DNA from: Picochlorum sp. SENEW3
Taxonomy: Eukaryota
Length of the DNA stretch: 64,000 nucleotides
Reading direction: 5' to 3'
Assembly (NCBI GenBank): GCA_034226945.1
Contig: CP120456.1
Span: 1,054,001 to 1,118,000 of the forward strand
A model generated the notes under the pieces. The model made no database searches. It was not told the DNA's origin and saw only the letters and a program-made list of their open reading frames with translations. Both the position numbers and the translations under genes were made by a program. Positions 30,506-58,915 of the stretch are shown here, piece by piece; position 1 is the stretch's first letter; every line of letters starts with the position of its first letter.

Positions 30506-30997
30506 ATGACGCTAATAGAATTACGCGAAGCATACGAAAAGCGCATTGCATGGCGAGAGTGTCAGGTATTGCAGTTGCTGGGTTGCCAAATTGATGACAG
30601 TATTGATGAACCTGTTAGTAAATTATTTAGTTTGAGCAGTAGTGAGCGATTGCAGGCAGTAATTGCGGGGCACCGTCCGTCGAAACTGCACTGCTTCAAA
30701 AAGCATCAAGAGTACTTGAGGTTTGTTGCGTCAGTGCAAGGGGAATTGAACGGAGGGTGCCAGCCAAATGGTGTATTACTGGATGCACTAGAGTATCACG
30801 GTGTTAATGTGAGAGAGGCAGTTGACAAGGCAAGCACTGAAGAAATGTTCAGGAAGTATTGCAGGAATGTAGACAAGGACATTCTGATATACTTGCAAGG
30901 CAAGTACGAGCTCAGCAGCACGTTTATATTTACCAGACTAGTTACTAGTGAATTAATGAGAAAGGTATTCGTGAAGTTACATGATGGAGGCTATTGA
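30506..30997 (+). CDS. Helitron accessory ORF, unknown function, convergent with RepHel and overlapping its stop by 7 bp
   Basis: 163 aa ATG ORF inside the element. Confidence 0.5.
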   Translation: MTLIELREAYEKRIAWRECQVLQLLGCQIDDSIDEPVSKLFSLSSSERLQAVIAGHRPSKLHCFKKHQEYLRFVASVQGELNGGCQPNGVLLDALEYHGVNVREAVDKASTEEMFRKYCRNVDKDILIYLQGKYELSSTFIFTRLVTSELMRKVFVKLHDGGY

Positions 30998-33900
30998 TTG
31001 ATGTCACATTCAGAAATGGGTGAAACTTTGAAAAGGTCTGGCGTGGGTAATTTGGTCAAGTAGATCTGCTGCAGTGTGGTTACACGGCTTAGCATGACGA
31101 ACAGCTGCCCTTCCTGAAAGATGTCTCGTATATCCAGGAGCACTTTGGTTTTGATGGTTTTCCCCTGAGCTTTGTGTGCAGTGAATGATGAGGCTGGCAT
31201 AATGGGAAACCGTCGTGTAGCATACTTGAAGCCATTACTGAGATATCTGACATCCTCCTGGGCATACAGAGTGACCGTTTGTTTGGTAGCTTTGACGTAC
31301 ACTTTGAGAGCCCAGGGAATCATGTCTTGTGAATGCAAAGGAGTAGTGACATAATCTGTTTGCTTTAACCTGTTTGGCTTATTAGGATTCTTGTATGCAA
31401 CAGACACAATACTTCCAACTGCTCCGTTGATGAGTCCCTTGTCGAAATCCTGATTTTTAGAGAATATAACTTCTGTGCCAATTGCTATCTTGCGCATGCA
31501 ATGAATCTTTGGCAGGTCATGAGTGAAGGATTCCTTTACTTTGGCTATCAAGTCATCTGAGTGGGGTGGAGTCCCAGACAGTATACGAAATGTAGGAGTA
31601 ATGTCAAATACCGGTATACCAGCTGTTTGACACTTATGGACTAGCAAGCGTTCCCCTAATTCCAAGGCATTGTCATTTTTTGCGTGGATGGAGATGGCAT
31701 CTGGGTTATCTATGAGGAATGGCAGCCACTGATGTTGAGGCAGAACTCTAGATGAAAACAAGTGTTTAATTTGCTCACGGCTGGGCGGCGTGTTATTGGA
31801 TACTAACCCTAGGATGAATTCTCCCCATTTAGGATCACCGCTAAATCTGCAGGAGGTAGACAGGTTGTGAATGTGCCAGGTATACTTGCTGAATTCGCTG
31901 TTCATAATGTTGCAGACTCTGCAAGTTTCCATAAGTTGATTGTCACTTCTTGACTTGTGCTGGCATATTGGCGGAAGTTGATTGCTGTCGCCGACAAGAA
32001 TGAAGAGCTTGTGAGCTATTTGATCTTCTTCAACCATATCACCACAGTTGAGAATTCTCTTGATGCAAATGTCCAATTTTGATGCAGTCAGCATAAAGGC
32101 TTCATCGACAATGATAACATCAGCGTCCTTGCAATATAGATAGGCTTTGTTTCGAAAATTGATATTGGTGCGTTTTTCCCCTGACCTTTCCAAAGCAACA
32201 ACACGGTCTATGGTTTGGCCGTGTATGTTGACAGCTGCAATTGCAGTGCTAGCGCACAGCACTACATTTTTCTTCATCGAGTGAAAGTATTGATGAATCT
32301 GATTGATAATAAAGCTCTTTCCACAACCTGGGCCTCCCTGAATGACATGGAAGCCTGAAGGATTCTGCTTGATATGGTCAAATGCCTGTTGCTGATCATG
32401 TGTAAGGACTGGTACATCATGGCTGTGGTGGTTTGTTGGAGATGGGTATACGGGTGTATGCGTTTCTACACCAGTTCGATTTTCGTAATGATCATAAATA
32501 AACTGACAATCTTTATCCAGGTTGAATTCTGATGCTAGCATGTTCATGTAGTGTGTTTCCAGCATGTGGCGCAGACGTATGGTTGTGTCTGCAAGCCCAA
32601 GATCGACGCACTTACCGTAATATGTGCTATCACGTCCAAGCAGTTCATTTTCCCTTCGAAATTTTTGTGTCTGCAACAAGGCGTTGAAGAAAAAACCCTC
32701 TGGATCTTCGCTTCCTGGAGCATATCTGGAGAGCCTGACAATTGCTTCTTTTTTGCGCTTGACAATTTGCTTATTATGCATGACAACGAACGTTCCTTCT
32801 TGACATGTGCTTTGTTTGCGCGGTACAACGTCATACTGCTCATAAAATTGAACAATTGTGAGAGATTCCATGTGTGGAGGTCGATCACAGTAAGCTGAAA
32901 TTTGATCAAGTGTAAAAGCGTCTTTGCCTCGTCTGGTAACCACAGATTCTGCTGAAGTTCGTTGAGAAGGAATACATGAGTTGACAAAGACTACCTGATC
33001 ACTGAATGAAATAACATCAATGCCAAGCATGTTTAGGGCAGCCTCAGAAACACTGACTGGTTTGCTATACACTACATCAGTCAGTATTCTCCTGGTGATT
33101 TCAGAACAATCTGGCACTGTCAGGGAATGCATGGCATCTGGCTCCACCATTAACGATCCAGCAGGCTCTGCCTTAGCAGTGTACTTGAGTAAGTAGTAGC
33201 TGAGATTATCATTTGTGACTCGCACAACATTTGTATGAGCATTCCACAGCAAGGCAATCATAGGAACGTAACAGACTGTGTTTCTATGTCTGTACCCTGG
33301 GCAGTATGGCAAATACCTCTTTGATTTTGGGCAAAGGACAGGTGTATGTGAATACTGTGCAGGAAATGGGAATCCATATCTACATTCACCATGCAAGCGA
33401 CATTGAGAGCTGCATGAATGCTGGTTTTTTTGCACAATAATGTTGTGCAGCATGGCAAGCACTTCGTCTGATGGCACTTTGTATTCTCCTGTCTCAGGAT
33501 CGACTTCGTACGGTATTTCCATGGTAAGCAGTTTCTCAACATCTGGTAAATCATCTGGGTGGATCCAGAGCAACACATGGGTATGCCATGCTTGTCTGCC
33601 TTGCAGTTCATATTTAATAACATGATTTGTAACTCTTCCTAAAAGCTGACACCCTCCGTCAAGACCCAAGATAAAGTGGTTGAAAAAGTTTTGAAACCTG
33701 TTATGAAACAATAGGGTTGTCTCACATGGTGCAGATTTTGCTTTCAATCCTGGGTTAATTTGCCTGAGAATGTCATCTAGCAAATCGTACTCCTTCCACC
33801 TGGTGGCCGAGCAATCATCCACTGTCAATGTCATCATCAAATGAGGAATTCCTTTCTTGGCTGCGACTGCCTCAATGTTGTGTAATTGATTCTTATACCA

Positions 33901-35523
33901 CAGAGGACTGCCTTTAATATGGTTGGAGATTTTGTATTTCTCAATTGTATCAAGGCATGTTTGGAGGACGAACTTTTTTCCTTCCTTGGCACAAGCTTTT
34001 TGTTGTCTGTCATATTCTTGTTGAATGACTACCTGCAGTAGAGAATGAAAGGCATAGAAGTAAACGCATTTTAGTACTAGGCTAATTGATTATCAACTTA
34101 CCCTGGTATTAGTGGATGAGTATTCTGTTGTTTTCATCGCTTGATACATAAGGCATATATATTCCTGAGTAAGAGAATATGGCGAAAAGAGTTGATGGCA
34201 CCTGAAAGACAAATACTTTTTGAATTGGCCTATTCCAACATTAAAGCAGGTGTTTGGGATGTGGTTGACTGTGAACTGAGGAAACAAATGTGGAAAGAGT
34301 AATTGCTCCATTGTCCCATGATCAATATTCCACGAGTCGTCGCGTAGATCTGTCGTATTTATACCGCCATGTACCGTCGTAGTAACGTTTCTTTCCTGCA
34401 ATCCCTCGCGGTCTTGAACTGACCCAACCTGTATTTGTTCATGGCTGTGGATTCCATCTGCAGTATGTGGCCGCCCACACATGACAGACAGCACTTCGTT
34501 GTCTGCAAGAATATTGCTTTGAGTGTTTGTAATATTTGCAGCCGTTGATACATCTCGAGCCTTGGATGGCTGAATAATATTGGTAAGCATGACTGAATCT
34601 GCAGGGCCTGTGTAGAGAGCCTGTCCCTGGCAATTTTTCCTTTCTAGCAAAGGCAGGTACTTGTGAAACAGTACATTGTGCCTTCTGTTTGTAAAATACA
34701 AGCTTAGAATCGAATCCGGAGGTCTCTGCTGCTGTAAACCCATGGCATGAAAAGCCTGAACATTGTCATGCCTTTGCATATGTGCCTCCTCCTCAATACT
34801 TGTGTGTTGCAATTTGTTAGCAAACAATGGCATTTCGAAGAACACATGTACCTTTGGTCGAAGCGTGCATCCCGAGGTCATTTGGTTGACAACATAAGTG
34901 ACGTCAAGCAATGAAAAGTATGACCTGTAAAACGGTTCTTCTGACAGCATAGCAAAGTACAGTGTGCTATATGGCACACAGCTATCATGGCATGCGACAG
35001 TGCCATAATTGAATGGCAATCGTGATTTCATTTCCAGCTTTTCTTTATCCTTGTTGACCTGGTAGCATGATTTACACACTTGTAGATTGCCACGTTCACT
35101 TTCAGGTGTTTCCAAGAAAAGTTTCAAGTCAACCAGTTGCAGTGCACAATTTCTTGTGGCACTGGTGTAAATCCACTTTTGCTGCACAGAGTACTGAATC
35201 CATGCATTGTAATTCTGCTTCAAGATGATTTGTAAATCCTGAGATAAGCATTTAATTCCTCGAAAGGAGTCGTTGCCTCCAAAATCAACGAAACTGCAGA
35301 CTGGGCAGCACTGAATGTCTGACACCAGAGTTTCACACGCACTACTCCACTCTGAAAGCATAGAACTATCCAACTTCATGTAGTCATAATAGGTATTGTT
35401 CCTTTCTCTAATATGCCTGACTAGGAGTTGAGGTTTTCCGACTGTAGACAGCCCTAGGTCAGAGCAAATGCTGCGGAGCTGTTCCCTGCTAAGATTGTCC
35501 CTACTTCGTTTTATACCGGGCAT
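30991..35523 (-). CDS. Helitron RepHel (N-terminal SAP, HUH-Y2 Rep, Pif1 SF1B helicase), ~1487 aa, intron at 34033..34101
   Basis: SAP-like LSREQLRSICSDLGLSTVGKPQLLVRHI; splicing GTAAGT..CTGCAG restores KGSPLWY..GIPHLMMTLT; ELQGRQAWHTHVLLW (HUH), YLLKYTAK, GGPGCGKS, IVDEAFM, GDSNQLPPI, TAHKAQGKT, GQLFVMLSRV. Confidence 0.93.
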
Positions 35524-35639
35524 ACTTAAGAATTTTTATACTGTAAGATAATTGTAATGTAATATACCTTAAACCTTCAACATAGCACACGTATGAATAA
35601 AATTGAACTGTGCACGGACTGATGCATGCACATTTTGTA

Positions 35640-36773: not shown

Positions 36774-37112
36774 GAAGAAGCAGAAGAGGAGCAGACGTGC
36801 AACTGTGAAGAAGACATGATCATGCTTTAACGCAGTAATCATGCTTATTTCTGCCAAGGTAGCAACTGTACACCAAGTGTATGTCATGCTTTCCTTTAAG
36901 AAATCCAATGTAAGTAGGAAGGAAGATCACCTACTTAATATATCTAATTAAGACCTGATAATAGATTTAAGTAGAATAATATATGTGGATCTTCATGGAT
37001 ACGTTCAGATGATAAGAGATGCTCTAGATCTCTAGGATGGACCCGTGGGAGATCCGAGGGGGTCCATCACATTCCTCCCCCCTCAGCAAAAACCAAGGGT
37101 TTTGCGACAAGA

Positions 37113-40100
37113 TTAAACGTTGTAGTAGTACTGAGGGAAAGACGGGTGACGAGACTGTGGTGGCCAGAAATTGTGAAAGACGAAGATCTTATGCCAATCG
37201 GCCTCAGTAAAACTAGTAACTGGCCTCCAGTCGTGAACCTTATCAAGCTCCTTATGCTGAAATTTGACCAAGTAGTGGGGTGTACCATACTCGTCCTCTT
37301 TCACATCCACAATTTCTTCTACAACAAGAGGCTCCAACGAGGACGTCACAGTAGGTTCTACAAAGTCCTGAGACTGAACATGTTTCTTAAGCTTGGAAAC
37401 ATGGTAGTACGCCGTTTGGTTGCTCTTCCTATGAGGAATATCCAGCTTGTACGCTGTGTCTCCGATACGATCAATAATAGAGAATGGACCTTCATACTTT
37501 GGTGCAAGGGACCCATTTTTCTGCACTTTAGCATCAGAAATCTTGACGAATACGAGATCTCCAATGTTGAAGGAAAGAGGTCTATGATGTTGATTATAAT
37601 ACTTAGCTTGCTTTGCCTGTGCCTTGCTGAGGTGATTCTTGGCGAAATCCACGAGGTACGAAATCTTGTGGTCAGTCGTCATAAGCGAAGATGAAGACGT
37701 GGGCTTGTTAAGAAAATCTGGCATGTGCCAATCCTCTCCAAAAACTAACCTGTTTGGGGAACAACCTGTGGATGCCTGCACCGAACTATTATAAGCCATC
37801 TGTAAGGTGGGTAACGCTAAATGCCAATCCTGCGATCTGTGTTCCAACAAATATGAACGAAGCATCTGTTTGATTGTGCCATTGACGTTTTCAACCTGAC
37901 CATTGGTTTGAGGATGTTCAACCGTAGCCAGCCTGTGCTCAATGCCAACAGTCTTCATGTAAGCTCTGAAAAATTGGCCTGTAAAAGCCGACCCCCTGTC
38001 GGTGATAATCACATCAGGATGCCCAAAAAGATTGAAGAAATGGTGCCGCAGTAACTCTAAGGTTTCGGGGCCACCCACATGGACGTCACAAGGGATGAAG
38101 ACAGCAAATTTAGTCAACCTGTCAACAACAACCAAAATGCCATTGGAACCCAATGAGGTTCTACGAAATGGGCCTACAAAATCCATGTGAATGATGCCAA
38201 AACGCCGATTAGGGATTTCCAGCGACTGTAACAATCCTGCAGGAGCTTTGCCGAGAGTGCTTGGAACAAGCACAGACTGGACATGCTGAGATGTAGCGAC
38301 GCAGCTGATTATACATCCCAGGCCAATAGTATTTAATTTTAAGCTTCTGATAGCATTTATCTATACCCATGTGCGCGCCCTGGTGCTCATTATTATGGTA
38401 GTAGTGAAGCAATTTACCTCGCAACATGTCTGGGACATACAAACATGATGGTGGGCCATTGTCGCGCTGAGCCAATGGCCAATGGTAGATAACACCATCA
38501 CGGACCACCAATTCTTTCGGAATAGGAAGTGTAGTTGACTTTGAATGTAAGAGAGCCTGAGCAATTGCATCCGAGGCATACGCAGCTTGTACCTGAGATA
38601 TCCAAGTGTCCCCTGCCAAGGTGAGTTGAACCGCTGCATACACAAAAGGGATAGACTCCTCTCTAAGGTGGCGCTTAAGCAATACTCGATTAATGTCTGC
38701 AGGGTGATGCTCTTGAAAGATGGCTAAGGAAGACCAAGGGCATACGGAGGGAGGGCCCTCCAAGTGGACTGCAGCAACCACCAGCTCATGATCTGGGCGC
38801 CTGCTTAAGCCGTCAGCAACAATATTTGTTTCACCTTTCTGATACTCTATTGACAGTTCTGGGCCCCATTCAAGCAATTCACACATCCACCTGACATGCC
38901 TTGATGACTGAGAAACGGCAATACTTTGCTGGAACTTGTGGACTAATGGACGATGATCAGTCCTGATCACGACCTTTTCACCAAAAATCAAAGGCTTCCA
39001 CTTGTCCAGAGCTGCCATGATGGCAAGCCATTCACGATCAAAGGTACTATAATTTCGCTGAGCTTGGTTAAGCGAAACGCTCATATAAGAGATTGGAAAT
39101 AATGCATCGGTATGGTACTGCTGTAAGACTGCCCCAACAGCGATGAGACTGGCATCCGTATTGATATAGAAAGGTTGATCTGGAATGGGCAACCTCAAGA
39201 GGGGAGGCTTGCTCAGTAACTGCTTTAACCCTTCAAACGCTGACTGATGCTGGGCGGTCCACTGAAATGTGACTTTGGAACTGGTGAGTTGATTGAGCGG
39301 AGCAGCCAACGCCGCAAAATTCGCAATGTACTGGCGATAATAATTGCACAACCCAAGAAATTGGCGGACATGCTTCGTGTTGGCAGGCACTGGCCACGCT
39401 TGGATGGCATCAAAGCTGACTTGCACTGGTTGCAATCCATGCTTGGAAAGGCGACTCCCTAAAAATTGGACTTCTTCTTGGAAAAAATGACATTTTTCAG
39501 GCGCGATGCGATAGTCCTCTTTGCTAGAGCGGCAAACAGGCGCTCCAGAATAGACTCATGCTCCTCATGAGTGCAAGTGCCGACAATGATGTCATCGAGA
39601 TACACCGCAGCATGATCTCGGAGATCATAGCGACGCAGCAAATCCGAAGTAAGGCGCTGCATAATGCTCGGTGCATTGCATAATCCAAAAGGCATGACAC
39701 GCCATTGATATAAACCCTCATGGGTAATGAATGCTGTCAGGTGGCAATGGTCAGGATTTACCAAAACCTGATGATACGCCGACTTCAGGTCGATCACACT
39801 AAATATGGATTTGCCTCCAAACTGTGCTATCAGGTCATCCGTATGAGGAATAGGAAATCTGTTAGGTATTGTGACAGCATTCAAGCATTTGAAATCAAAG
39901 ACTAACCGATCCTTACGGTTTGGTTCATGAACGATAAAAGCTGGAGAAGCCCAGGCTGATTGTGAATACTCTATAAACCCAAGCTTGAGAAGCTTGTCGA
40001 CTTCCTGTCGAATCTTTGTTCGGTCCTTGGGGCCACAACGACGCGCTTTCTGAGACGAAGGAGAAGCCCCCGGCACTAATTGTATGTCGCAATTAATAGA

Positions 40101-40613
40101 GCGCTGTGGGGGCAACCCTGACGGTGGCTCAAAAACGCATGAGTACTTCAAGATGCAAGGAGGAATGTGGCTCATGTGTGAAGAAGCCATAACTTGCCTG
40201 CCAATAGGATAGATGGAGGTGGAAAACCACTGCTCCTGATACTCAAAACGAAGTTCATGTGTACCATGGTTGATGATGGCCTGGTGATCCTCAAACCACG
40301 GCACTCCGAGAGTAACATCTGCCACTTGGGGCATGACAACGAATGCCAGGACAGCTGAGTATTCCTGAATTGCGATGCGCAACTGAATGACTTCAGACAA
40401 AGAGGCTGAATGGGCAACCCCTGACGCCAATGTGACCGACAATGGCTGACGCAAACGCTGCGTAGGTAAAGAATGTCTGGTAACCAAGGCCTGGTCGATA
40501 ACGTTGGCCGAGCACGCCGTGTCGAGCAATATGTGCACCGGAATTGTCGATGACTGGGCATCATATAGGGTGCCCACGGCGATCGGTGGAAACCCGACTG
40601 TGACGGAGGCCAA
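37113..40613 (-). pseudogene. Gypsy pol: protease, RT, RNase H, integrase, chromodomain; frameshifts near 39480 and 38270
   Basis: LLDTAC, DLKSAYHQ, MPFGLCNAP, YLDD, TDAS, TDHRPL, N..ADGLSR, HMG..CPVC, HMDFV, TDRG, GQVE, PKYEGPF; chromodomain VEEIVD..YLVKF..DW. Confidence 0.92.
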
Positions 40614-40744
40614 CTCTGCATAGAAATGTGAAGGACATCAGGAGGTTACAGAACACTACCCGAATTAAGAAAGAGAGAAAGCCAAAACCGGGATGCATGC
40701 CGATTCAATGCCGAATTGACGAGACAATAGTGGAAACTAGGGAG

Positions 40745-41100
40745 GTCATGACCCTTGTTGGACGCAGCAAGGGTGCAAGCAGTTGCTTTCATCAACCTCG
40801 TTTGTGATTCTTGGGGTGACCACTGGTGGACGCAGCAGTGGTGCGATAGACGCTTCACCAGCCAAGGCAATTTCATGCTTATAACCACTGGAGGACACAA
40901 CAGTGGGGCGAGAAGTAGCTCTGTATGATTCTTGGGGTGACCACTGATGGACACAGCAGTGGTGCGATGAACGCTTCACCAACCAAGGCAATATGGTTCT
41001 TGGGATGACCACTGATGGACACAGCAGCGGGCGACGGACGCATTCATCAACCAAGGCAATATCATGGGGGTAGATTACCAAACGGTGGACACACCATTGA
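40745..41100. repeat. Degenerate ~55-65 bp tandem repeats between gag and pol
   Basis: Recurring core GACCACTG.TGGAC.CAGCAGTG and flanking CCAAGGCAAT, about 5-6 units. Confidence 0.75.
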
Positions 41101-41177
41101 TACGAGCAATTGGAACTGCTCAACCCGAAAATATCTAAAGAGGGGACGTTACCCAGAAAAGACCGAAAATGTAAGAA

Positions 41178-41972
41178 TTACTCACCGTCATATTTGAACG
41201 AAGGGGCTTGTAGCCCTGCCTCTGGCTGCATAGTCTGAGCTGCATGCGTAACTGGAGGCCGCCTCCAGCGCGGGTCTTGTCTGCGCTGACGATCCGACCC
41301 GTTATTGCGCTTGAACTGAGGAGGCGCATAGGAATGCTTCAACTGCTGCACCTGTGTGCGAATATCCTGCGTCGAGGTAATGGACTCAATATCAAGCTTC
41401 TTACGCAGCGGATTCGGCAAACTCTTGGCCATAGCTAAGGCAATAAACGCGTGGCTGTTGGCATGAAACCATGACAAAAAGGCTGGGTTATTGGCAAGAG
41501 CGTGCATGTCATCGAGAGTGCTAAGCACTCGCTCAACAGCAGCCGTATTAGGCAAAACAGGCAAGTTCCAAAAGCATAACTGAGGCAACGTTTCCGCCAC
41601 TGGAGGAAACAGTTTCTGCAAGGTTGCGGTAAAGTCGTCTAGACTCATCTGTAGGTACACGTCGACGGGTTTCAATTCCAAACGCATACAGAATTGCTGA
41701 ATAATTTCGTCATCAGCCAATTGAAAACGATTTCGCATAACCTTAACCTGGGTCTCGACAAAAGCTTCCACCGAGGAAAAACTCTCCAAGGAAGGCATAA
41801 CCTGGTAATAGCCTCCACCCAGTTGAGAAACCATAGATGACCCCGCCGCATTCACACTGGCCGATCCGGATCCCATTAAGGCCTGTGGAGTAGATTGAGG
41901 ATCCGAGGGCATCTCCGGGCGAGCTCGCTTAGTGGACGCGCGAGTGCTGCGACGAGGCGGCATAGCTAGCAC
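41178..41972 (-). CDS. Gypsy gag-like ORF
   Basis: First ORF after the PBS, with a helical core and R/Q-rich C-terminus. Confidence 0.7.
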   Translation of the reverse strand: MLAMPPRRSTRASTKRARPEMPSDPQSTPQALMGSGSASVNAAGSSMVSQLGGGYYQVMPSLESFSSVEAFVETQVKVMRNRFQLADDEIIQQFCMRLELKPVDVYLQMSLDDFTATLQKLFPPVAETLPQLCFWNLPVLPNTAAVERVLSTLDDMHALANNPAFLSWFHANSHAFIALAMAKSLPNPLRKKLDIESITSTQDIRTQVQQLKHSYAPPQFKRNNGSDRQRRQDPRWRRPPVTHAAQTMQPEAGLQAPSFKYDGE

Positions 41973-42092
41973 AATTTCTGTCGGGGAAATTCGATTCTGT
42001 CAGCTCCACCAATGTAAGTAGGAAGGAAGATCACCTACTTAATATATCTAATTAAGACCTGATTAATCTATAATAATAACTCCTAGATGGAA

Positions 42093-42620
42093 CAGCTCAA
42101 AATTTTAAATTTCGTTAGGTAAATCGCATTAAAACGAATTTAGATTAAAATGAGCACATATTCTGGGGAGTAGCCAACGAAAATTGAATAAAAGTTCCAA
42201 TTTTTTTGGCAATTCCCCTGCTTGACAGTCTTTGCCTATCCAGCAACCCTTTTGACCGATGATATTGATCGACTCATTGATCTTCTTCTTTTCCCATCAA
42301 ATGTCCCTCTTGACAGGCAAATCGACTGCGACTTGCGAGTCATAAACTGCTGACTGGGGTTGCCCCTGAGCATGCTACACATCCATACCCTGCCACTCAA
42401 TGATCCAGAGGATTCACAGAGCTCAAATCTCTTAGATCCTGTATGAAATGCCCTTGTTAGGTCAACCAGAACAGAGGCTGACGAAAATTGAATAAAAGAA
42501 ACAAGGCATTTGAAGCTGACCAACGAAATTTGATTAATATGAAGGGGCAAAATTTCCTCGCGCTTCGCACGACGAAATTCAATATTTTAATCAATAAAAC
42601 GAAATTAAAAAATTTTCCTG
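42093..42620. mobile_element. MITE-like insertion in the 5' LTR
   Basis: Absent from the other LTR; inverted ends AAAATTTTAAATTTCGTT / AACGAAATTAAAAATTTTCCTG-TA; repeated ACGAAAATTGAATAAAAG. Confidence 0.6.
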
Positions 42621-42832
42621 TATGTTGATCTTCATGGATACATTCAGATGATAAGAGATGCTCTAGATCTCTAGGATGGACCCGTGGGAGATCCGAGGGG
42701 GTCCATCACATCCAAGGCTTCCTTAAAAAGACGATATGAGAAGATCAAGGAGACAAGAGTGTCTCCCTGCATGCGATGTTGATATTATTTACAACACAGT
42801 GCATATTTTACGTAGCGGTAACAAAAATATCT

Positions 42833-43234
42833 TTATGTGCGTTGATACATTTGTTGGTACATTCCTTTGCAAAATGGATCACCAACCATCAAAGGGTCGT
42901 TGTACCCCAGGGCAGTGTGTGACTGGAACTCTCTAATCATCTTTGTTTCAACCGCATTAGCTTCTCTCTTACTCTGTACAATGTCTAAAATATATACCTT
43001 GAACACATCAGTCCAGGTCTCAGACGTCTTTTGCAATGCCTGGACATCCTTTCTCATCTTTCGAACAGGTCTCTTTTGGTGCGCTCGAATCCGAGTGAGC
43101 AAAGCTTGCTTCGTTTGTCCTATATATACTTTGTTATTGTGCACATGCTTGATGCAATACACTATGAAATGCCCTGGAGACTCTGCAGTGAGCTTCTCAA
43201 GGTCCACGTTGTATTTCAACTTTGAGTGAGCCAT
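42833..43234 (-). CDS. GIY-YIG endonuclease (stand-alone, 133 aa)
   Basis: FIVYCIK..NNKVYIGQT..LLTRIRAH..AVETKMI..GYN: both tyrosine motifs plus the conserved R, E and N. Confidence 0.85.
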   Translation of the reverse strand: MAHSKLKYNVDLEKLTAESPGHFIVYCIKHVHNNKVYIGQTKQALLTRIRAHQKRPVRKMRKDVQALQKTSETWTDVFKVYILDIVQSKREANAVETKMIREFQSHTALGYNDPLMVGDPFCKGMYQQMYQRT

Positions 43235-44553: not shown

Positions 44554-45506
44554 ACCCTTGACCTGCGTCTCACAATGTAAGTTAATCTTATTTAAAAGGG
44601 ACTTCTTATATTTGCATTCGTATATGCACTAATACAACGCAACAGCGTGTTATTCTGCCAACAAAATGATGCTGTCCACCATCATCATACCAATAGCAAG
44701 CCTTAAAAGCAGGTGATCTATCTATGGTGCCCACCAAACCAGCTCAAATCCAATTCTTCTGTAATTTACATACATAGTAAGTTAATTAAAATCCAGTACT
44801 GTGCTATAGATACCAACTACAGGTGCGCACGGACAATCGACCGTTAATGACGCCCAGATTTGGCCACGTCCTGTAGCCCTGGGCGGTATTTATGGGCAGA
44901 GAGATATACCATCTTATGTATCATATGTATTTGTATTTCTATAGCGCTTCAACGGCGGTAATACGGCACCACAAAAATTCGGGCATCTGAATTTACGCGA
45001 ATTTTTCGCTAAATCGACGCTCGCAAACGCAGCGTGGCCGGCTTCGTACCCCTCGCAGTCTCAATAACCTTATATTACAATACTAGTCATTTTTATGTAC
45101 ACAGTGTAATTTATCCTGCTGCAGGGAAGCGGGAATCGCGTTTGTGGTTACAGCTATATAAAGTTTTTCCCCCAAAGTACCACTTGCTGCGGCATTCCCG
45201 CTTATAAGCGCTTATCCCGCTAGCGGGATCACCGCCGTATTTGAGGGTGGCGCCCAATGGCCAAAACCCCAAAACTCGGCGGCGTTCCCGCTTATAAGCC
45301 GGATCACCGCCGTGTTTCCAAACCCCATTCTGAAAATATGGCGGCATTCCCGCTTAGACTAATTTGAATTTTGGGTGAGCGTCGGAGAGTTTATGCTTTC
45401 AAATTCATATGATGGATAGTAAGCAATAGATATTGTTTAATTGTAAGGGCTATATAAAGGCAATCAATCGCCAGAGTCGCACTGGTGGCAACGCTTCACG
45501 GGACTC

Positions 45507-46997
45507 ATGGGCGACCAGGACTCTCCACCACTGTGGACTCAGGAGCAGGGCAGAGTGCTTCAAGGTCTAGATATCATACCCTTTGATCCACAGAAATGTG
45601 AAAAGGACTTTTGGGACCTGCGCCGCGGGACTGATGCCTTCGACCAGGCTCTCGGAGCACGGGTTGAGGCAGGGAAGCTGTATGAGATATCTGGGGAGCG
45701 ATATTACACGTCCTTGAGGAGACAGGGACGACTGCGTCTTCCAATTCAGACGTTTGACGATGCCAATATCATCTACTTGAAAAGAATATGCTATGCGTTT
45801 GGCGGCGAAGACATACCGCGCGACGAAGACCTGCGCGAATATCTGGTCTTCAATAACGGGTTCTGGCCGCTGCGTACCAGGCCATATATTGTCGCGTGCC
45901 CATCTGCTTTATCGCTGCCTTCCAGTGTGATTTCGTTTCCTTGTATATTGAATATATATGAGGTTGATGAGCCCGCAACCATGCCGAAGTCAGTGCCCAA
46001 GTATGCCAAGGACTTGATGCAATTCCACCTGTTAGTGATGAAGCAAGATATGCCGATCTTGTTGTTTGACGATGACGTTGCAGACCTTGTTGGGATGTGT
46101 ATTTTCGTCCTCAAAGACCCTGACATGAATACACTTGATCGAGGCGTACCTGTCTGCGAGTTCTTCCTTGTTTCTTTGAGCAAAGAAGAAGAGCAGGTTT
46201 TGACTCACACTGGCATCCAAGTTCTTTCAGACCATTATATGCAGCATACGATTCCGAGGGATCGATGCAGTATTGAAAAAGAATATTTAAATCCTCAAAA
46301 TTTGAGTGAGTATCCCTGGCAGAGAAGACCTACGCGTGAGGGTCGTCCTTCGTATGAATGTGGGCAAAGTGTCATTAGGAGGAAAGATGGTGTTTGGGGT
46401 ATGATTCTACAAGAACGGGAACATATCGACGCAGAGACGGGAGATCTCCACCGAGAATTCGGGATATCATGCGACAAAGACATTTTGAAAGAAGGAAAGC
46501 TGAAGCCTGGGCACAGATTGAAATATTACCCCACATCCGAAATAATGGGAGTGTTTGCATGCCCGCCAGTGCGTTTTCCTATTCATCCAACAAAAATTGG
46601 GCAGCGAGTGGTGGTGTACGGTGCTGGTAATTCCAACAAACTATCCATTCCAGACGGGTCTTGTGGTGTCGTGAATGCTGTCATCGAGGATGGTCCGAGA
46701 ACCTCCTTGATGTGCACCGTGGCTGTGCAAGAAGAATATCCCAGCATGGAGACAACACAGATTGACGTGAAATTAAAGTATACGAGATTTTTGTTGCTCG
46801 ACAACGAACAGTATGTATCTCATCAACCTTCAGATTATGATAATGCGAACATTCCGCGCAGGATCATTTACAAATTCGAAAATCTGACCTTTTGCGAGAT
46901 CAAAAAGCTGTTTGAGACAGCGGAGAAGAGCAGACTGGTTCACAAATGTAGCAAAGGTACGATCTCACGAACAACTTCAATTCGATGCCCTTGCTGA
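45507..46997 (+). CDS. MULE-internal ORF, unknown function (possibly an N-terminal exon of the transposase)
   Basis: 496 aa ATG ORF inside the TIRs, just upstream of the transposase. Confidence 0.6.
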   Translation: MGDQDSPPLWTQEQGRVLQGLDIIPFDPQKCEKDFWDLRRGTDAFDQALGARVEAGKLYEISGERYYTSLRRQGRLRLPIQTFDDANIIYLKRICYAFGGEDIPRDEDLREYLVFNNGFWPLRTRPYIVACPSALSLPSSVISFPCILNIYEVDEPATMPKSVPKYAKDLMQFHLLVMKQDMPILLFDDDVADLVGMCIFVLKDPDMNTLDRGVPVCEFFLVSLSKEEEQVLTHTGIQVLSDHYMQHTIPRDRCSIEKEYLNPQNLSEYPWQRRPTREGRPSYECGQSVIRRKDGVWGMILQEREHIDAETGDLHREFGISCDKDILKEGKLKPGHRLKYYPTSEIMGVFACPPVRFPIHPTKIGQRVVVYGAGNSNKLSIPDGSCGVVNAVIEDGPRTSLMCTVAVQEEYPSMETTQIDVKLKYTRFLLLDNEQYVSHQPSDYDNANIPRRIIYKFENLTFCEIKKLFETAEKSRLVHKCSKGTISRTTSIRCPC

Positions 46998-47045
46998 TCC
47001 ATCATCACCACTTTCGCCATCCAGGTAACGAGAGTTTGGTGCCAG

Positions 47046-49420
47046 GTGACGATACCCTTGACATCTTGGAGCGGAAGAGGAAGGAAGCGCGGGCATCAGG
47101 ACTATGTGGCATGGTTGGCTTCTTGTGTCCATTCCGACCCGTTCTTTGGCAAGACCTGCGAGCGTCGAGCCAATGAACGCTCCGAAACATATGTGGCATT
47201 GCAAAAGCCGACGGAGACCATTGCTGTACTGACTTGCTCAAGGGGACAGCAGAAAGCAGTGCCGGCAACAAGCAAGCAAGGAAAGAAAGTCAACTGCGAA
47301 TACAGAACCCGCCTCACAAAGTTTCGATACGAGGATGCCATCTACGCTGAGGCACTTCAGACCCACACAAATCACGAACCGGGTTCTGGAGATTACCACG
47401 AGCCTGAGACACCTCGACTGAAGAGGGCATTGGATGACCTGTACGACCTTGGATTCAAACCTGCAAAGGCTGTCAACGTTATCAAGTATCAGACAGGTGC
47501 CACCCGGCATGATCTCACGGTTGAGGAACGACATCTCTTGAATAAGACGATGGCAATTAGAGTCAAAAAAGCATACAACAAGCGACAGGCCTCCGGGAAC
47601 GACCTGGATGCTTGCGAGGCTCTGTACAATCAACACCGCGAACACTTTCTATACTTTGAGCGAGGCGACGATGTGCAGATCGCGATTTGCAGCCCAGAGC
47701 AAAGAAAGGTGATGAAAGCCTGCCATACAATGGTGTTCGCTGATGCTGTGCATTGCCTGAATCGAAAAGGTGATGTGACATTGGCTCTCCTGGTGCGAGA
47801 TCCATATGGCATGGGCTTCCCAGTGGCCTACTGCATATGCTCGGGGGGCGAGGATTCCACCAAATGGAAAAAATTCATCAGAGCCGTTGTAGATGCATGT
47901 GATGTACAGATCGATGACATCACCTTCATGATTGACAAATCCACATGCTGCATCTCTGCTTTGGACCAGCTCAACTGCTTCTGGGTCCTGTGTGCTTTCC
48001 ATTTCATGCAGAGCATCGGGCGCAAAATGAAAAGCCACGGCAGTGGCGTGTCTGGACGCAGTGATCGCGACAAATCCAACCGAAACACAATCTTCAGATA
48101 TGTCAACAGCCTCAGGCTCGTCAAGGACGAGGGTGCCTTTGATTCTGTGGCGTATGAATTCATGACCTTCCTGGAGAATGAAAACCTGGCCGAGATGAAG
48201 GAATATTTCATCAAAAATTGGATGACAATCAGCGATCGGTGGTCTCAATATGGAAGGAAACACATTGCCTTCTTGAAATCAAACACCAACAATCTGATTG
48301 AGCGGCTCTTCAGGACTGTCCAAGAAGAGTTCCTTGACAGGGAGAGACTGGGTCGCAGAGATAGCCTCATCCTAAAATTCCTCGACGAAGTAACACCACG
48401 ATACCTTGATCGACTGCAGAAGCGATTACAAGGGGCCGAAAAGGCCAATGCGCGAGTGAACCAAAACAAGCATTTGACAGGTGTCGACACGTGTGGCAGA
48501 ACCATGCAGCCCTATTGTGCCACTGGCCAGGGGTCCCTCAGCGACTCGTGCCTCATCAAATTCAATGTGGATAATCAGATGTTCTACTGCTGTACCGGAG
48601 ACCTCAGCTGCACTTGTGATGACAACGACGACGACATTTGTATGCATGTCGAAGCTGCCATGAAAAGTACCCCATCACCTACGAGATGGTGAGAAAGGTG
48701 GCGTCTGTCGTGAAAAGCCGCCAACACGAGTATGTCCAGAAGATGGCGACACCAGCTCCGTTTCATGGTGCAGAAGACCATCATGTGGAATTGTCCGATG
48801 TCGAGATTGATGAGGACAACACGGTGTATCAATGCTTGCCGGTGTGCTTTTACCACCTGGGACCAAAACCACGCAGAAAGTACTTTGTCAACATGTACTA
48901 CAAAACGTGCACGTGTCATTGCTTTTCCTTCTTCGGCACATGTCCACATGTCATAGCGTTAGGCGCTACGGATGAAGACGATATGGATCCTGCGGAGAAA
49001 CTCCAGAAATCTGTCCAGATCAGGAACGACAATCATGTCAACGCGGAGTGGGAACGAGCCTTAGTTCAGGCCTTTCCCGCACCAAGCCATGGCTCAAGCT
49101 GCGACATCTTGACGCTTGGAAGACGGCAAATCACGGACCCTAGGATGCTGACCAAAATACAGTTCAACAACGACCAGAGAGTCGCATCCTCGATCCTCGA
49201 CGAATTGCCCCGACATCTTGATGGCCGGTTCATGGGCTCCATCAGACATTCATGCAGGGCATCCGACAATTGCAGGAGATTGGCATCAACGAGTGTCGGA
49301 ACCAGAATACCAATCCAGCCCCTGCATTCAATGCCAATATGGCCTACATCCCTCCTCAACCAAGCTGGCACAGGAACCCCAACCCCAGCAATTCTGTGGC
49401 GCAATACGAGGACATGGTGA
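47046..49420 (+). pseudogene. MULE transposase with WRKY/FLYWCH-like finger, DDE core and two SWIM fingers; frameshift near 48665
   Basis: C..C..HTNH, FADAVH, GFPVAY, FMIDKS, LCAFH, NTNNLIERLF, CTC..CMH, CTC..CPH. Confidence 0.85.
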
Positions 49421-49958
49421 TTGAAGAATAATAACTCTACAACGAAGAATGTAAAAACGTCTACTGATCCAGATCGCACACAGAACTAACAGCCAACCGA
49501 CTCACCTGGAAGTGCGACCCTGACAACGAGAGCATTGCGCTGCAAATAATGCAGCAATAGGTTACTTGTTGCACATATATTTATAATATATCCCTGATAT
49601 AGTGTTGGAAGGCAAACACGGCATCTCAGCGCTTCTTCTGACTTTGACGGTTGGGCTCGGATGGAGCAGTCCAGAACGTGCCACAAGCATATTTCGACGC
49701 TTGGATGGCAATTTTATATATTCTTATATATAGTGTATTGATTTGGTACACATGATATAAAGGTTATGGTGCTTGTGGATGGCCAACGGGCTTCATGACG
49801 GTTGGTGATTGTCTAAGCGGGAATGCCGCCATATTTTCAGAATGGGGTTTGGAAACACGGCGGTGATCCGGCTTATAAGCGGGAACGCCGCCGAGTTTTG
49901 GGGTTTTGGCCATTGGGCGCCACCCTCAAATACGGCGGTGATCCCGCTTATATATATA

Positions 49959-51036
49959 CAGTACCGTAGTGTCCGCAATTTTCGGAAGGAATTTGGAAAA
50001 CTGAAAATGGCCTAAATCCGAAAATCTTCGGAGTGCAAAACCACGAAACCAGTGATATACGGTGGATTTAAATATCAATTAATGTATAATTATGACATTC
50101 CCGAAGCGAAAATAGGATCAAATAGCGGTAGCGGGAGATATGGTCGGATTATTGTCTGGAGCCAACCTCTGGCCACACCTGGTCCTGCTGCAGCTGCTGA
50201 TGGCTCTACTTCTCATCGAAACACGGTTAATCTCTTTCCCGCCGATATCGTTGGCCTAATATCATCCTTATAACATTACCAGTCGTGCCTAAAGTGATAA
50301 TCGTCTGCAAAAACGTGGAAAGAGGCCCATACTCCCAGGACCACCCTGAGTGATCACCCCTGACTGGCCTCATTCGCGTGGCCCTGATGCTCACAAGCGC
50401 TCATGTCGCCATCTTATGTCTTCTATATGCATTAGATTTGACGTTCGCTGCCCAAGAGCGACATACCTCGCCTGTAGAGAGCCTGCTGTCTCTGGCAAGT
50501 CAACCAGTTTGGCAAAAGAGGTTTTCTGGCACTTATCTGCGAAATTTTCACACGATATCGTATTCTCGGCACTCTAAGAAGTTCTTTTATGGTCCTGGGT
50601 GGGTTTATCGGTGACAGAGGCCCTCCACTGAGGCGATGTCTCGGGCAACAGGGCAACCAACCCAACGACCCAACCCAAAATCGTCGACGTAAGTGGCCCT
50701 TTTTCTTCTTGGAATAGCAATATAATATTGAATTAGTGATATTTCAGGGGGCGAGGGAATTGAAACAGCACCCATTGTCCATCAAAGTCGCCACGAAGTG
50801 GTGTCGCCACGAGTCGCTCATTCGAGCGTCGTTGTTGATTTCTGAGAGTTTCAAAGGGCGGTTTCGAGCGGGAGAGGTACCACTGGAATCAGTAGAATTC
50901 AAGCTATTTTTCAAGCCTTATTTGACAGAATATCTCGCACTTTTGATCAAAGTATCGGGCTAAATCTCATATTTTCGGAAGGATTTCCACTTTTTGCAAG
51001 TCTCATTTCCGAAACATTACGGACACTACGGTACTG
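49959..51036. mobile_element. Non-autonomous Tc1/mariner(pogo)-type element inserted in the MULE right TIR
   Basis: 17-bp TIR CAGTACCGTAGTGTCCG / CGGACACTACGGTACTG within TA runs. Confidence 0.8.
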
Positions 51037-51459
51037 TATATATATAAGCGGGATCACCGCCGTATTTGAGGGTGGCGCCCAATGGCCAAAACCCCAAAAC
51101 TCGGCGGCGTTCCCGCTTATAAGCCGGATCACCGCCGTGTTTCCAAACCCCATTCTGAAAATATGGCGGCATTCCCGCTTAGACAATCACCAACCGTCAT
51201 GAAGCCCGTTGGCCATCCACAAGCACCATAACCTTTATATCATGTGTACCAAATCAATACACTATATATAAGAATATATAAAATTGCCATCCAAGCGTCG
51301 AAATATGCTTGTGGCACGTTCTGGACTGCTCCATCCGAGCCCAACCGTCAAAGTCAGAAGAAGCGCTGGTTTCGTGGTTTTGCACTCCGAAGATTTTCGG
51401 ATTTAGGCCATTTTCAGTTTTCCAAATTCCTTCCGAAAATTGCGGACACTACGGTACTG
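51037..51459 (-). repeat. Two-part inverted duplication of 49627..49958 and 49959..50052
   Basis: Reverse-complement identity; the parts join at a 3-bp CTG microhomology (51366-51368). Confidence 0.85.
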
Positions 51460-51547
51460 TATATATAAGCGGGAATGCCGCAGCACATGGCACTTACGGT
51501 TTTTCCCCCCTATAGGCCCGTAAAAAAATAAAAAAATAAAAAATGCT

Positions 51548-51810
51548 GATGCAATTCAGCAGCAGTCCGTGATCGGACACGCTGACCTGGAAAACATATT
51601 AAATATTATGAAAACTGTGATGCCCCATGGCATATACGACGGATCGAGCACGCAAGAATGGCAGGATCGGCTTGGGATTCATGACTATGCAAAAGTGTTT
51701 CATGCCGTGCCTACTTTGCATGTCAAGCACGGGATACCAGCTCCTCTATACCATCTGATTCTCTTAGGCATAACGAAAAACTTTATAAAATATTTGTGGG
51801 ATGGCCACGG
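51548..51810 (+). repeat. Fragment of the CACTA transposase (inverted copy of ~4146-4408)
   Basis: Encodes IGHADLENILNIMKT...LWDGHG, nearly identical to 3031..4593. Confidence 0.9.
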
Positions 51811-54109: not shown

Positions 54110-54329
54110 CATGCTCATAGCAAGAGACACTTGTCCAGAGTTGTGAATCCCATCTGATCCTGCCACTCGTTCAGGGCTGATCCGTCAGGCATTCCATTCG
54201 ATACAACAATTGTTTTGTCGAAAAATCTGTTGGTCTGTCGTTACGAGACCTTTGAGACATGCTGCCAGGAGAAAGTACAACCTCTGTAGCAGTCCCTCTC
54301 AAGCACACATCTGGACCTTGTCTGTTGCT

Positions 54330-54700
54330 TTGGCATCTTAGGAGACGAGCCCACCAATGCTTCACTACCATACCAAACTGGTATGTGTTAGAGTATAGCA
54401 ATGGATTGGGCTCCCAAATGCTTGAGATTCATCGCCAATGCCGATCGACCATATGTAGACTGCCCATTCCGTCCCCTGCTTTGAGTTGCTCTTCTGTCAG
54501 CCATTTGAACCACTCAGACGTGTACAACGACTCTATTTTCGGCCACTTCTGTCCTGAATCCTATAATTTTTGTTAATTGAATAGATTCCTGATATAGTTT
54601 AGTGGACCCCAAAGTTGTGAGAGTGCTGCAAGGGTTCCCACTGCTAGCTGCCTAAAGTCTGTTTGTACTCCATCCAACTCCTCCATCTTCATCTGTATCC
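54330..54700 (-). pseudogene. Diverged TNP2-like transposase remnant
   Basis: CCATTTGAACCACTCAGACGTGTACA and GGACCCCAAAG..AGTGCTGCA match ~4971-5110. Confidence 0.5.
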
Positions 54701-54979
54701 GTGTCTTTACAGAACGGAGCACTACTATTGTAACGCAAAAGCATTTATGGACTTCATCCGTTTAAAGCCTGCAATATTTTTGGTCTTTCGCAGCAGACGA
54801 ACTACTCCATAGTGAAATGAACCTTGTGGTGGATCAACTGCAAGAGACACGTCACAGACGGAGGCAAGATAAGCTAATATCAGCACCCATGGTACTACTT
54901 ACTCAGGATTCGTCTTATTCGTGTCATCAGAAATCACCAGGACAGGCTGAGTTCTGGAGCTTCCGGGGAGGAGTGAGTC

Positions 54980-57107: not shown

Positions 57108-57481
57108 CCAGTGACTCGCGAGTCGCCGGTATACCGGCCCTCGAAAACTGAAAAGTTTTAATTTTTCATTTTCTTTCCGAATTTGTGGTCGGGGGGCGAT
57201 ATCTTTATGGCCGTGACTCTTCGAATTCGTGTTTTTCGCGTTGTTTTCGCGAGATTCTGACCATTTTTACGATCCAGCGACTCGAATGACACCTTAATAC
57301 AGTATTACATTGATTTAGGGGTGCGAGGAAATTTAATATGCGCCAGGGGAGCCGAGGGAGCGACATCGTGAAAAAGTTTGGAAGCCTATTACCGGCCCTC
57401 GAAATATTCGTCATATTTTTCGTCTGTGTAATAATCCCCTATAAAAAAAGATTGCCTCATAAAAAAGACTGGAACACGGCA

Positions 57482-58459: not shown

Positions 58460-58689
58460 TGTGGCTTAATACAGTATTACTGTATTACTGTATTGAATAC
58501 AACAACTTGCCAGGGGCTCGTGGGGTTTACATGGGAAGTAGTGAGATATTTCGCATCAATGCAACATGAACTCTCGCTTCGTTGCTCATCCAGATGTGAG
58601 GAAGGGGAGGCAGACAGATGGCCAAACTCCATTTCTGTTGACTTAACACTCTCATTGTACCATGATGCTATTTGACACTGCATCTACGA

Positions 58690-58915
58690 TGATGAGGACC
58701 TCCCGCCCGGTCCCGCTGGGACTATGGACCACCCTGGGTTTGATGGAGTGGTTGACAACTTTGGTCACCACCATCATTCGGCTGCCATTGGACACGCCCA
58801 TGGTGATGTTGCGAAGGGCAATGAAGGGGGCCCCAGCCTTGAGCCTGATGACGTGTGGAGGCAGGCCACTCTCCTTGATCCTGGCGACATACTCCTCTGG
58901 GTATTCATTGTCCCT
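58690..58915 (-). pseudogene. Fragment of a canonical Helitron Pif1 helicase (different family from the RepHel at 30991)
   Basis: Translates to YPEEYVARIKESGLPPHVIRLKAGAPFIALRNITMGVSNGSRMMVTKV. Confidence 0.75.

What the first reader, a model, noticed from the sequence alone, without database searches (positions are those of the whole stretch)
40616..41185. Gypsy gag and pol appear to be joined by splicing of a 570-nt intron
Seen: gag ends GAC G|GTGAGT AA, a consensus donor at 41185 placed just before the gag stop. Upstream of pol is CTGAT..TTTCTATGCAG|AG TTG GCC, an acceptor at 40616. Splicing yields D-E-L-A-S-V..., exactly in frame with the protease ORF, which has no ATG before its catalytic motif. 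Inference: unspliced genomic RNA makes Gag and spliced RNA makes Gag-Pol. Most Ty3/Gypsy elements use frameshifting, read-through or a single ORF instead, and the element must avoid copying the spliced form.
Basis: partly seen in the sequence, partly recalled or inferred. Interest (0 to 1): 0.7.

Follow-up and report, generated by a model that had tools for sequence, protein, structure and literature searches.

The report
Probably spliced Gag-Pol in algal retrotransposon
A young jumping gene of a small green alga keeps its coat-protein gene and its enzyme gene apart with a non-coding spacer that looks built to be either spliced out (giving the enzymes) or cut short (giving coat protein only), an unusual way to set their ratio that has not yet been seen in RNA.

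Summary
A recent Ty3/Gypsy element of a Picochlorum-type green alga has gag and pol in one frame, separated by 570 non-coding bases with stops in all three frames. A donor lies on the last gag codons, an acceptor at the start of the protease, and joining them gives an in-frame Gag-Pol. Pol has no AUG before its catalytic Asp. The Gag ending YDGE* recurs in 6 of 9 relatives, some only 75% identical. Two additions: a second in-frame route through a 21-nt micro-exon scores as well, and the element's only sense-strand TGTAA (the host poly(A) signal) lies 30 bases before the acceptor, suggesting three RNAs: gag-only, spliced Gag-Pol and genomic. Splicing itself is not shown: 0 of 4 runs laid (contigs only) held the junction. 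Precedents: Ogre (intron after the protease), Tyl3 (similar spacer, mechanism unknown), EVD (mirror logic). This scan noted a similar donor-on-gag-stop design in a DIRS-like element of another genome (unchecked note). Verdict: new variant of a known kind; splicing about 70% likely.

The parts
42013..42710 (-). 5' LTR (TG...CA), interrupted in this copy by about 557 unrelated bases (42064-42620) that stand in place of about 22 LTR bases
   Evidence: the second copy (L003) has two identical, uninterrupted 163-nt LTRs
42001..42011 (-). Primer-binding site TGGTGGAGCTG, complementary over 11 nt to the 3' end of host tRNA-Ala plus CCA
41178..41963 (-). gag ORF, 261 aa from the first ATG, capsid-like, no CCHC zinc knuckle seen, ends ...PSFKYDGE*
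   Evidence: no Pfam hit; ESM Atlas first hit 0.92 Retrotrans_gag/Ty3_capsid; weak fold matches to Arc and Ty1 capsid domains, Z 4.7, low-confidence model
41180..41185 (-). Splice donor G|GTGAGT overlapping the last two gag codons and the first base of the stop
   Evidence: same breakpoint in public gene models P0006, P0007, P0011, P0012
40616..41185 (-). 570-nt non-coding spacer / putative intron
   Evidence: stops in all frames; indels in runs X11 and X16; folds better than shuffles, z -2.47; no Rfam match
41095..41115 (-). Possible 21-nt micro-exon (V-P-I-A-R-I-N) between acceptor 41116 and donor 41094; keeps the frame
   Evidence: gene models P0011, P0012; donor 41094 ranks 1 of 308, acceptor 41116 ranks 11 of 308; lengths 70 + 21 + 479
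40805..41069 (-). Three diverged copies of a 76-nt repeat inside the spacer
   Evidence: family D12; one 121-nt unit is missing in run X16
40645..40651 (-). CTGTAAC: the only sense-strand TGTAA of the element; probable internal poly(A) signal
   Evidence: PMC1868727 table of top hexamers
40637..40641 (-). Branch-point-like CTGAT (motif yUnAy recalled, not tested in this host)
40616..40622 (-). Splice acceptor TATGCAG|
37113..40615 (-). pol: protease, RT, RNase H, integrase, SH3-like domain, weak chromodomain; in three frame pieces in this copy, probably assembly errors
   Evidence: a continuous 1154-aa relative P0010; contigs of 3 of 4 runs differ by one base at two of the breaks
37072..37084 (-). 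Polypurine tract
36909..37071 (-). 3' LTR, 163 nt; TTGGA target-site duplication on both sides of the element

Best explanation
The spacer is a regulated, inefficiently removed intron. One LTR promoter gives three RNAs. (1) Most transcripts stay unspliced, stop translation at the gag TAA, and many end inside the spacer, most simply at the CTGTAAC signal just before the branch point: a Gag-only mRNA. (2) A minority use the donor at 41185 and the acceptor at 40616, directly or through the 21-nt micro-exon, which removes the gag stop and the poly(A) signal and gives Gag-Pol. (3) Some escape both and reach the 3' LTR: the genomic RNA that is copied, which is why genomic copies keep the spacer. Shown: the signals, their phase, the non-coding nature of the spacer, the conserved gag ending, retention of the spacer in 2 of 2 genomic copies. 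Inferred: that splicing occurs, which path, use of the poly(A) signal (about 55% given splicing), and any packaging role of the structured repeats (speculative).
For: In-frame join and no AUG before the catalytic Asp. The acceptor leaves 31 residues before that Asp; Pfam RVP_2 position 30 aligns with ORF residue 31 and the acceptor is at ORF residue 8, so nearly the whole domain lies after it. Acceptor rank 2 of 308, donor 21 of 308; joint chance 0.002. 6 of 9 other gag proteins ending at their own stop are YDGE* or break at that codon in a telling way: of 9 relatives in alignment A1, 5 end YDGE*, 2 gene models leave the frame exactly after YD (DSNI*), 1 ends YDRD, 1 diverges earlier; two further near-identical Logan proteins end YDGE*. 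The 35 residues before that ending are poorly conserved. Spacer indels in X11 and X16. A GTGAGT donor is usable: run X16 has one contig that skips 82 nt, AAG|GTGAGT...TGCAG, on the antisense strand of pol. TGTAA follows the stop within 150 nt in 34 of 93 long host ORFs, about 10 expected from genome average; it occurs once in the element's sense strand, in the spacer, and not in its LTR, whereas 6 of 7 other Gypsy copies carry it inside the LTR. In X5 one unspliced contig covers 42063-40858 at depth 47 against 3-6 for pol contigs (a hint only), and G000 has only 2 gag copies.
Against: No joint at 41186^40615, 41186^41115 or 41095^40615 in 4 of 4 runs laid; the donor is bridged unspliced in X5 and X11 and the acceptor in X16 and X18. 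Only X11 is on record as RNA; contigs drop rare forms and give no strand. GTGAGT was 0 of 51 among my inferred host donors, which favour GTATGT and GTACGT (14 of 51), and 570 nt is far above their 89-nt median, although I searched only 55-140 nt. The host matrices are unsupervised and noisy. The X5 contig ends about 210 nt short of the TGTAA; X16 and X18 show pol but almost no gag cover, the opposite pattern. 3 of 7 other Gypsy copies also have one internal TGTAA. The conserved YDGE ending could reflect protein constraint. The gene models are predictions, and P0011/P0012 also place introns around pol frame breaks. No DNA of a diverged relative was obtained, so conservation of the acceptor and TGTAA is untested.
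Confidence: 0.7

Rival explanations
1. Pol is made on its own, without splicing: from a promoter inside the spacer or by re-initiation, starting at the near-cognate TTG at 40613, or at the out-of-frame ATG at 40621 followed by a -1 shift at G_GGU_UUC (40595) into the protease frame.
For: TTG 40613 has G at -3 and +4; the heptamer is in the ATG-40621 frame and a -1 shift enters pol. Green algae translate bicistronic mRNAs (PMC7896298, passages); Tca2 has a minor junction promoter (PMC2194720, passages). No splice joint seen. An X11 pol contig ends near 40626 (my arithmetic tables 2 and 3).
Against: 32 ATG triplets lie between the LTR end and the catalytic codon; ATG 40621 has a poor context and is simply part of the host-type acceptor ATGCAG; 7 such heptamers occur in 4942 nt; free Pol needs a way into the particle; does not explain the donor on the gag end or its conservation.
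Confidence: 0.15
2. The spacer is a later insertion or decayed stretch in a family that no longer makes its own Pol; the splice-like motifs are chance, and any splicing is incidental.
For: Pol is in pieces in both G000 copies; the window copy's 5' LTR is interrupted; a donor of this score within 30 nt has an 11% chance on its own.
Against: The second copy has identical LTRs and the window copy a perfect target-site duplication; a continuous 1154-aa Pol and Gag ending YDGE* share a cluster with 5038-nt contigs; the same gag end is found at 75% protein identity; no spacer-less copy in G000 (2 of 2 keep it).
Confidence: 0.08
3. The donor is real but serves a short intron to a nearby acceptor (41116 or 41135) that only changes the Gag tail; Pol comes by another route.
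For: P0006 and P0007 end YD-DSNI*; a 70-nt intron fits the host's usual size; acceptor 41135 would open a 143-aa frame.
Against: One-base indels and a repeat loss break the 143-aa frame in X11 and X16; acceptor 41135 ranks 123 of 308; leaves the in-phase acceptor at the protease start unexplained.
Confidence: 0.06
4. Stop-codon read-through or a ribosomal frameshift from gag into pol.
For: Gag and pol share a frame; another Gypsy family in G000 has overlapping ORFs with an A_AAA_UUU_U site (L053, L054).
Against: 5, 11 and 6 stops in the three spacer frames; indels in relatives.
Confidence: 0.01

Closest known systems
Ogre (Ty3/Gypsy, Tat group; pea, Medicago)
   Same: Two ORFs separated by a non-coding region (274 bp on average) that is an intron spliced from a subset of transcripts to allow translation of the whole polyprotein (PMC6317226, passage; the primary paper was not held).
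   Different: [quoted passage not shown] Ogre is a non-chromovirus of flowering plants; this is a 5.3-kb algal element with a chromodomain-like end and a candidate poly(A) signal in the intron.
Tyl3 (Ty3/Gypsy, Yarrowia lipolytica)
   Same: GAG and POL separated by a spacer (324 bp) with four further stops; authors call it unusual (PMC5014426, passages).
   Different: No intron or IRES was found there by prediction; mechanism open. Here strong in-phase splice sites are present.
EVD and other plant Ty1/Copia elements; BARE1
   Same: Splicing and premature termination together set the Gag:Pol ratio; U1 binding at the donor suppresses nearby poly(A) sites (PMC5580714, abstract, passages and section 8; PMC3735527, passages).
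   Different: Mirror logic: there the spliced, early-terminated RNA makes Gag and the unspliced single ORF makes Gag-Pol; here the unspliced RNA makes Gag and the spliced RNA would make Gag-Pol.
Foamy viruses
   Same: Pol is expressed from a spliced RNA (as cited in PMC5014426 and PMC2194720, passages).
   Different: Foamy Pol is separate from Gag; here the splice keeps all of gag but two codons and makes a fusion.
Chromoviruses, algal clade Chlamyvir
   Same: Algal host, domain order, chromodomain-like C-terminus (PMC6317226, passages).
   Different: Clade not tested; chromodomain score below the Pfam cut-off; a tRNA-Ala primer site.

Membership tests
Ty3/Gypsy LTR retrotransposons (Metaviridae) | pol order protease-RT-RNase H-integrase | tested here: met
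   Pfam on window pieces and on P0010
Ty3/Gypsy LTR retrotransposons (Metaviridae) | TG...CA LTRs, target-site duplication, PBS, PPT | tested here: met
Ty3/Gypsy LTR retrotransposons (Metaviridae) | Upstream ORF is a capsid-forming Gag | tested here: inconclusive
   No Pfam hit; Atlas 0.92 to Retrotrans_gag clusters with 98 shared features; Z 4.7 to Arc and Ty1 capsid domains from a pLDDT 49.6 model; Foldseek none at E <= 0.001. Position and these leads make Gag likely.
Chromovirus lineage | Chromodomain after the integrase | tested here: inconclusive
   PF00385 E 0.04, 14.3 bits against a cut-off of 25.1; not reported for full-length P0010
Chromovirus lineage / Chlamyvir | RT phylogeny within the clade | not tested
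   No named reference RT sequences were fetched
Ogre/Tat | [quoted passage not shown] | tested here: not met
   The spacer lies before the protease; protease and RT are one frame
Ogre/Tat | Additional archaeal-type RNase H; large element | tested here: not met
   One RNase H region in Pfam scan of P0010; element 5267 nt
Spliceosomal GT-AG intron | Donor, branch point and acceptor matching the host | tested here: met
   Scores at about the median of 51 inferred host introns; branch motif judged from recalled consensus
Spliceosomal GT-AG intron | Removed from RNA in vivo | tested here: inconclusive
   No joint in 4 of 4 runs, all contigs; no raw reads were offered among 21 runs

The most novel reading that the evidence does not exclude
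An algal Gypsy lineage sets Gag, Gag-Pol and genome levels by a three-way choice at one spacer: a poly(A) signal placed just before the branch point competes with 3' splice-site use, the U1-matching donor on the gag stop both fuses gag to pol and shields full-length RNA from cleavage, and structured repeats inside the intron mark only unspliced RNA for packaging. This would be the mirror image of the plant Copia strategy, reached independently.
Probability: 0.3. Interest if true: 0.75.

Novelty: new variant of a known kind. Interest (0 to 1): 0.55.

Why it matters
Every LTR retroelement must make much more Gag than Pol from one promoter and must copy only full-length RNA. The papers read here give frameshifting, read-through, a single ORF, Copia-type splicing to Gag and the Ogre intron as the solutions. 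An intron that fuses Gag to the protease, competing with an internal poly(A) site, would add one, and would offer a testable explanation for other unexplained gag-pol spacers such as Tyl3. The element is young, present in two copies in a small, cultured alga, so RT-PCR and 3' RACE can settle it cheaply.

Tried and rejected
Looking for DNA of diverged relatives: the metagenome scan with protease-RT gave 36 loci of 25-43% identity, none of this family by identity, and I did not examine them further; viral contigs with gag and with pol, none; genome contigs with gag, none. A fused Gag-Pol among longer proteins: none of 2150 candidates (weak evidence, since later showed two such gene models). Profile search of 1.84 billion representatives: 3 hits, one family member and two repetitive proteins that Pfam shows to be unrelated. 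Foldseek on the gag model: nothing at E <= 0.001. PDB sequence search with the protease: only Ddi1 at E 0.13. Rfam over 40500-42800: none. First intron-finding run without a length limit was noise and was redone for 55-140 nt. The 143-aa frame in the spacer was rejected as coding (indels). Holes in run cover (X5 40125-40857, X11 about 40627-40915, gag in X16 and X18) prove nothing. Literature: searches returned 0 papers; others returned lists in which I saw no gag|protease intron described for a Gypsy element; two showed no study of Picochlorum Gypsy elements (listings only). Gao 2003 and Steinbauerova 2008 were not held, most subscription papers are not searched, and I opened no supplements (REXdb Additional file 5 on ORF organisation may bear on novelty).

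Full report
1. What the element is. The finding lies in an LTR retrotransposon on the minus strand, 42710 to 36909. Pfam finds protease, RT, RNase H, integrase and a Tf2-type SH3 domain in Gypsy order, and a sub-threshold chromodomain hit. The ends are TG...CA, flanked by TTGGA on both sides. The primer-binding site matches the 3' end of host tRNA-Ala over 11 nt. G000 is 13.85 Mb in 14 contigs and holds two copies, identical over the 1201 nt around the junction; gag also has 2 matches and the LTR 8, three of them solo or partial. The second copy (L003) is 5267 nt with identical LTRs, so the family moved recently. The only Gag relatives found are three clusters; those that bear names are from Picochlorum, so the host is inferred to be a Picochlorum-type green alga. 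The first ORF has no Pfam hit, but the ESM Atlas ranks Retrotrans_gag clusters first (0.92) and a low-confidence model matches Arc and Ty1 capsid domains weakly (Z 4.7); I treat it as Gag. Pol is in three frame pieces in the window and two in L003. A continuous 1154-aa relative exists (P0010), and contigs of 3 of 4 runs differ by one base at two of the window's breaks, so these are probably assembly errors.

2. The observation. The donor G|GTGAGT starts at 41185 and overlaps the last two gag codons; the acceptor TATGCAG| ends at 40616; both are phase 1; the join reads YD-ELASV in the protease frame. The spacer is 570 nt with 5, 11 and 6 stops in its three frames. The first pol-frame ATG is at 40334, beyond the catalytic Asp. 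The acceptor leaves 31 residues before that Asp, close to the start of the Pfam RVP_2 model. To judge the sites by the host's own standard I inferred 51 short introns from 200 kb of G000 (20 stretches) with no motif prior beyond GT and AG. Host donors favour GTATGT and GTACGT (14 of 51; GTGAGT 0 of 51) and acceptors TGCAG or TGTAG. In the element the 40616 acceptor ranks 2 of 308 and the 41185 donor 21 of 308, each near the host median. Random placement gives such a pair in phase in 0.2% of trials, the donor alone in 11% and the acceptor alone in 5%. The matrices are noisy and the windows were set after the fact, so this is support, not proof.

3. Conservation. Of 9 relatives aligned (74-88% identical), 5 end YDGE*, 2 public gene models leave the frame exactly after YD (DSNI*), 1 ends YDRD and 1 diverges earlier; the preceding 35 residues are poorly conserved. 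D-G-E-stop is what G|GTGAGT-AA encodes, so the simplest reading is a conserved donor, though I saw proteins only. Two near-identical Logan proteins also end YDGE*, which makes 7 of 11 such Gag sequences; counting the window's own, alignment A1 has 6 of 10. Gene models P0011 and P0012 join gag to pol with the same outer sites, but through a 21-nt micro-exon, YD-VPIARIN-ELASV. They carry the same frame breaks as the two G000 copies and route introns around them, so they are neither independent nor proof. Still, the inner sites score well: donor 41094 ranks 1 and acceptor 41116 ranks 11 of 308. Two in-frame routes therefore exist, 570 nt direct, or 70 + 479 nt.

4. RNA evidence. Of 21 runs listed, all contigs, I laid 4. 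None shows a joint at either route. The donor is crossed unspliced in X5 and X11, the acceptor in X16 and X18. Only X11 is on record as RNA. The spacer behaves as non-coding: X16 lacks one 121-nt repeat unit and has three one-base indels there, X11 has two. In X5 (type not on record; very uneven depth suggests RNA) one contig covers 42063-40858 at depth 47 while pol contigs have 3-6; X11 has 10-15 over gag and 3-8 over pol. The tool warns that contig depth cannot rank parts of a gene, and X16 and X18 show pol with almost no gag, so this is a hint. X16 has one 57-nt contig that skips 82 nt bounded by AAG|GTGAGT and TGCAG on the plus strand: an antisense transcript of pol is spliced, which shows that a GTGAGT donor can be used and suggests that X16's unspliced acceptor cover may be antisense RNA.

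5. A poly(A) signal in the spacer. TGTAA lies within 150 nt after the stop of 34 of 93 long host ORFs (22 of 93 on the opposite strand; about 10 expected from the genome average), mostly in the first 100 nt. UGUAA is the signal of late-branching chlorophytes, and UGUAAC and CUGUAA are the top hexamers in Prototheca and Chlamydomonas, 15-23 nt before the cut (PMC1868727, passages). The element's sense strand has one TGTAA in 5802 nt, as CTGTAAC at 40651-40645, just before the branch-like CTGAT. Its LTR has none, whereas 6 of 7 other Gypsy copies examined have one inside the LTR; 3 of those 7 also have one internal TGTAA, so an internal site is not unique. A cut 15-23 nt downstream would fall between branch point and acceptor, making cleavage and splicing exclusive. 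The X5 contig stops 210 nt earlier, which neither fits exactly nor contradicts.

6. Mechanism. Best reading (0.7): Pol is made as Gag-Pol from a spliced minority RNA; Gag from unspliced RNA, much of it probably ended in the spacer; full-length unspliced RNA is the genome. I split the 0.7 as about 0.4 direct and 0.3 through the micro-exon or both. A long intron with a donor that is not the host's favourite would be spliced poorly, which is what a high Gag:Pol ratio needs (inference). In EVD, U1 binding at the donor suppresses premature termination (PMC5580714, section 8); the same could let some RNA pass the TGTAA here (inference). The spacer folds better than shuffles (z -2.47); if its repeats are the packaging signal, spliced RNA would be excluded from copying, in line with 2 of 2 copies keeping the spacer (speculation). 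Rivals: separate Pol from an internal start (0.15), decay or insertion (0.08), short intron changing only the Gag tail (0.06), read-through or frameshift (0.01). Other Gypsy families in G000 use a continuous gag-protease frame (L047, L049, L010, L011) or overlapping frames (L050, L053, L054; the last two with A_AAA_UUU_U); none of these 7 has such a spacer.

7. Comparison and novelty. It is a Ty3/Gypsy member; chromovirus membership is inconclusive. It works like Ogre, whose inter-ORF region is an intron spliced from a subset of transcripts, but Ogre's intron follows the protease (PMC6317226, passages). Tyl3 has a 324-bp gag-pol spacer with stops and no known mechanism (PMC5014426, passages). 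Plant Copia elements use splicing with early termination in the opposite sense (PMC5580714, abstract, passages, one section; PMC3735527, passages). My searches showed no described gag|protease intron in a Gypsy element, but key papers were not held. This scan has an unchecked note of a donor on the gag stop in a DIRS-like element of another genome. Verdict: real arrangement, splicing probable but unshown; new variant of a known kind; interest 0.55.

Noticed in passing
L121, L123, L124 (G000:C1 near 257460; C5 near 288160 and 798640): Three nuclear tRNA-Ala genes (CGC, AGC, TGC) are circularly permuted: the 3' half lies about 30 nt upstream of the 5' half. Permuted tRNA genes are reported for Auxenochlorella, prasinophytes and Cyanidioschyzon (PMC12633428, passages). 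These tRNAs match the element's primer site.
   Followed up: partly
window 38621-38702 (+): An antisense 82-nt GTGAGT...TGCAG intron inside pol is skipped in one contig of run X16 (depth 11 against 5 unskipped): spliced antisense transcription of the element. A plus-strand TGTAA at 41170-41174 lies where the main X16 contig ends.
   Followed up: partly
window 42064-42620: About 557 AT-rich bases interrupt the 5' LTR of the window copy only; no match elsewhere in the window or in loci fetched.
   Followed up: partly
window 41808-41972 against L003: All 7 substitutions between the two copies cluster in 165 nt at the start of gag; elsewhere they differ only by one-base indels in pol.
   Followed up: no
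L116 (G000:C6:837865-838043): Diverged solo LTR (84%) with a matching short duplication on both sides; contigs of X5 and X18 run from its end into the flank.
   Followed up: partly
window 30991-35535 (-): Helitron-like Rep and PIF1 helicase ORFs, with a SAP-domain ORF upstream.
   Followed up: no
window 42833-43234 (-): Stand-alone 133-aa GIY-YIG endonuclease ORF just upstream of the element.
   Followed up: no
window 44746-52246 and 52688-60529: Long inverted repeats (428 nt, 356 nt, 1246 nt arms) around a Mutator-like transposase ORF at 46998-48692 and other DNA-transposon-like blocks; the window is a transposon-dense region.
   Followed up: no
L010 and L011: Two copies of another Gypsy family share the same frame break just after RNase H; real recoding site or systematic assembly error.
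   Followed up: no
L053 and L054: A Gypsy family with overlapping gag and pol and an A_AAA_UUU_U site just before the gag stop: an ordinary -1 frameshift candidate.
   Followed up: partly
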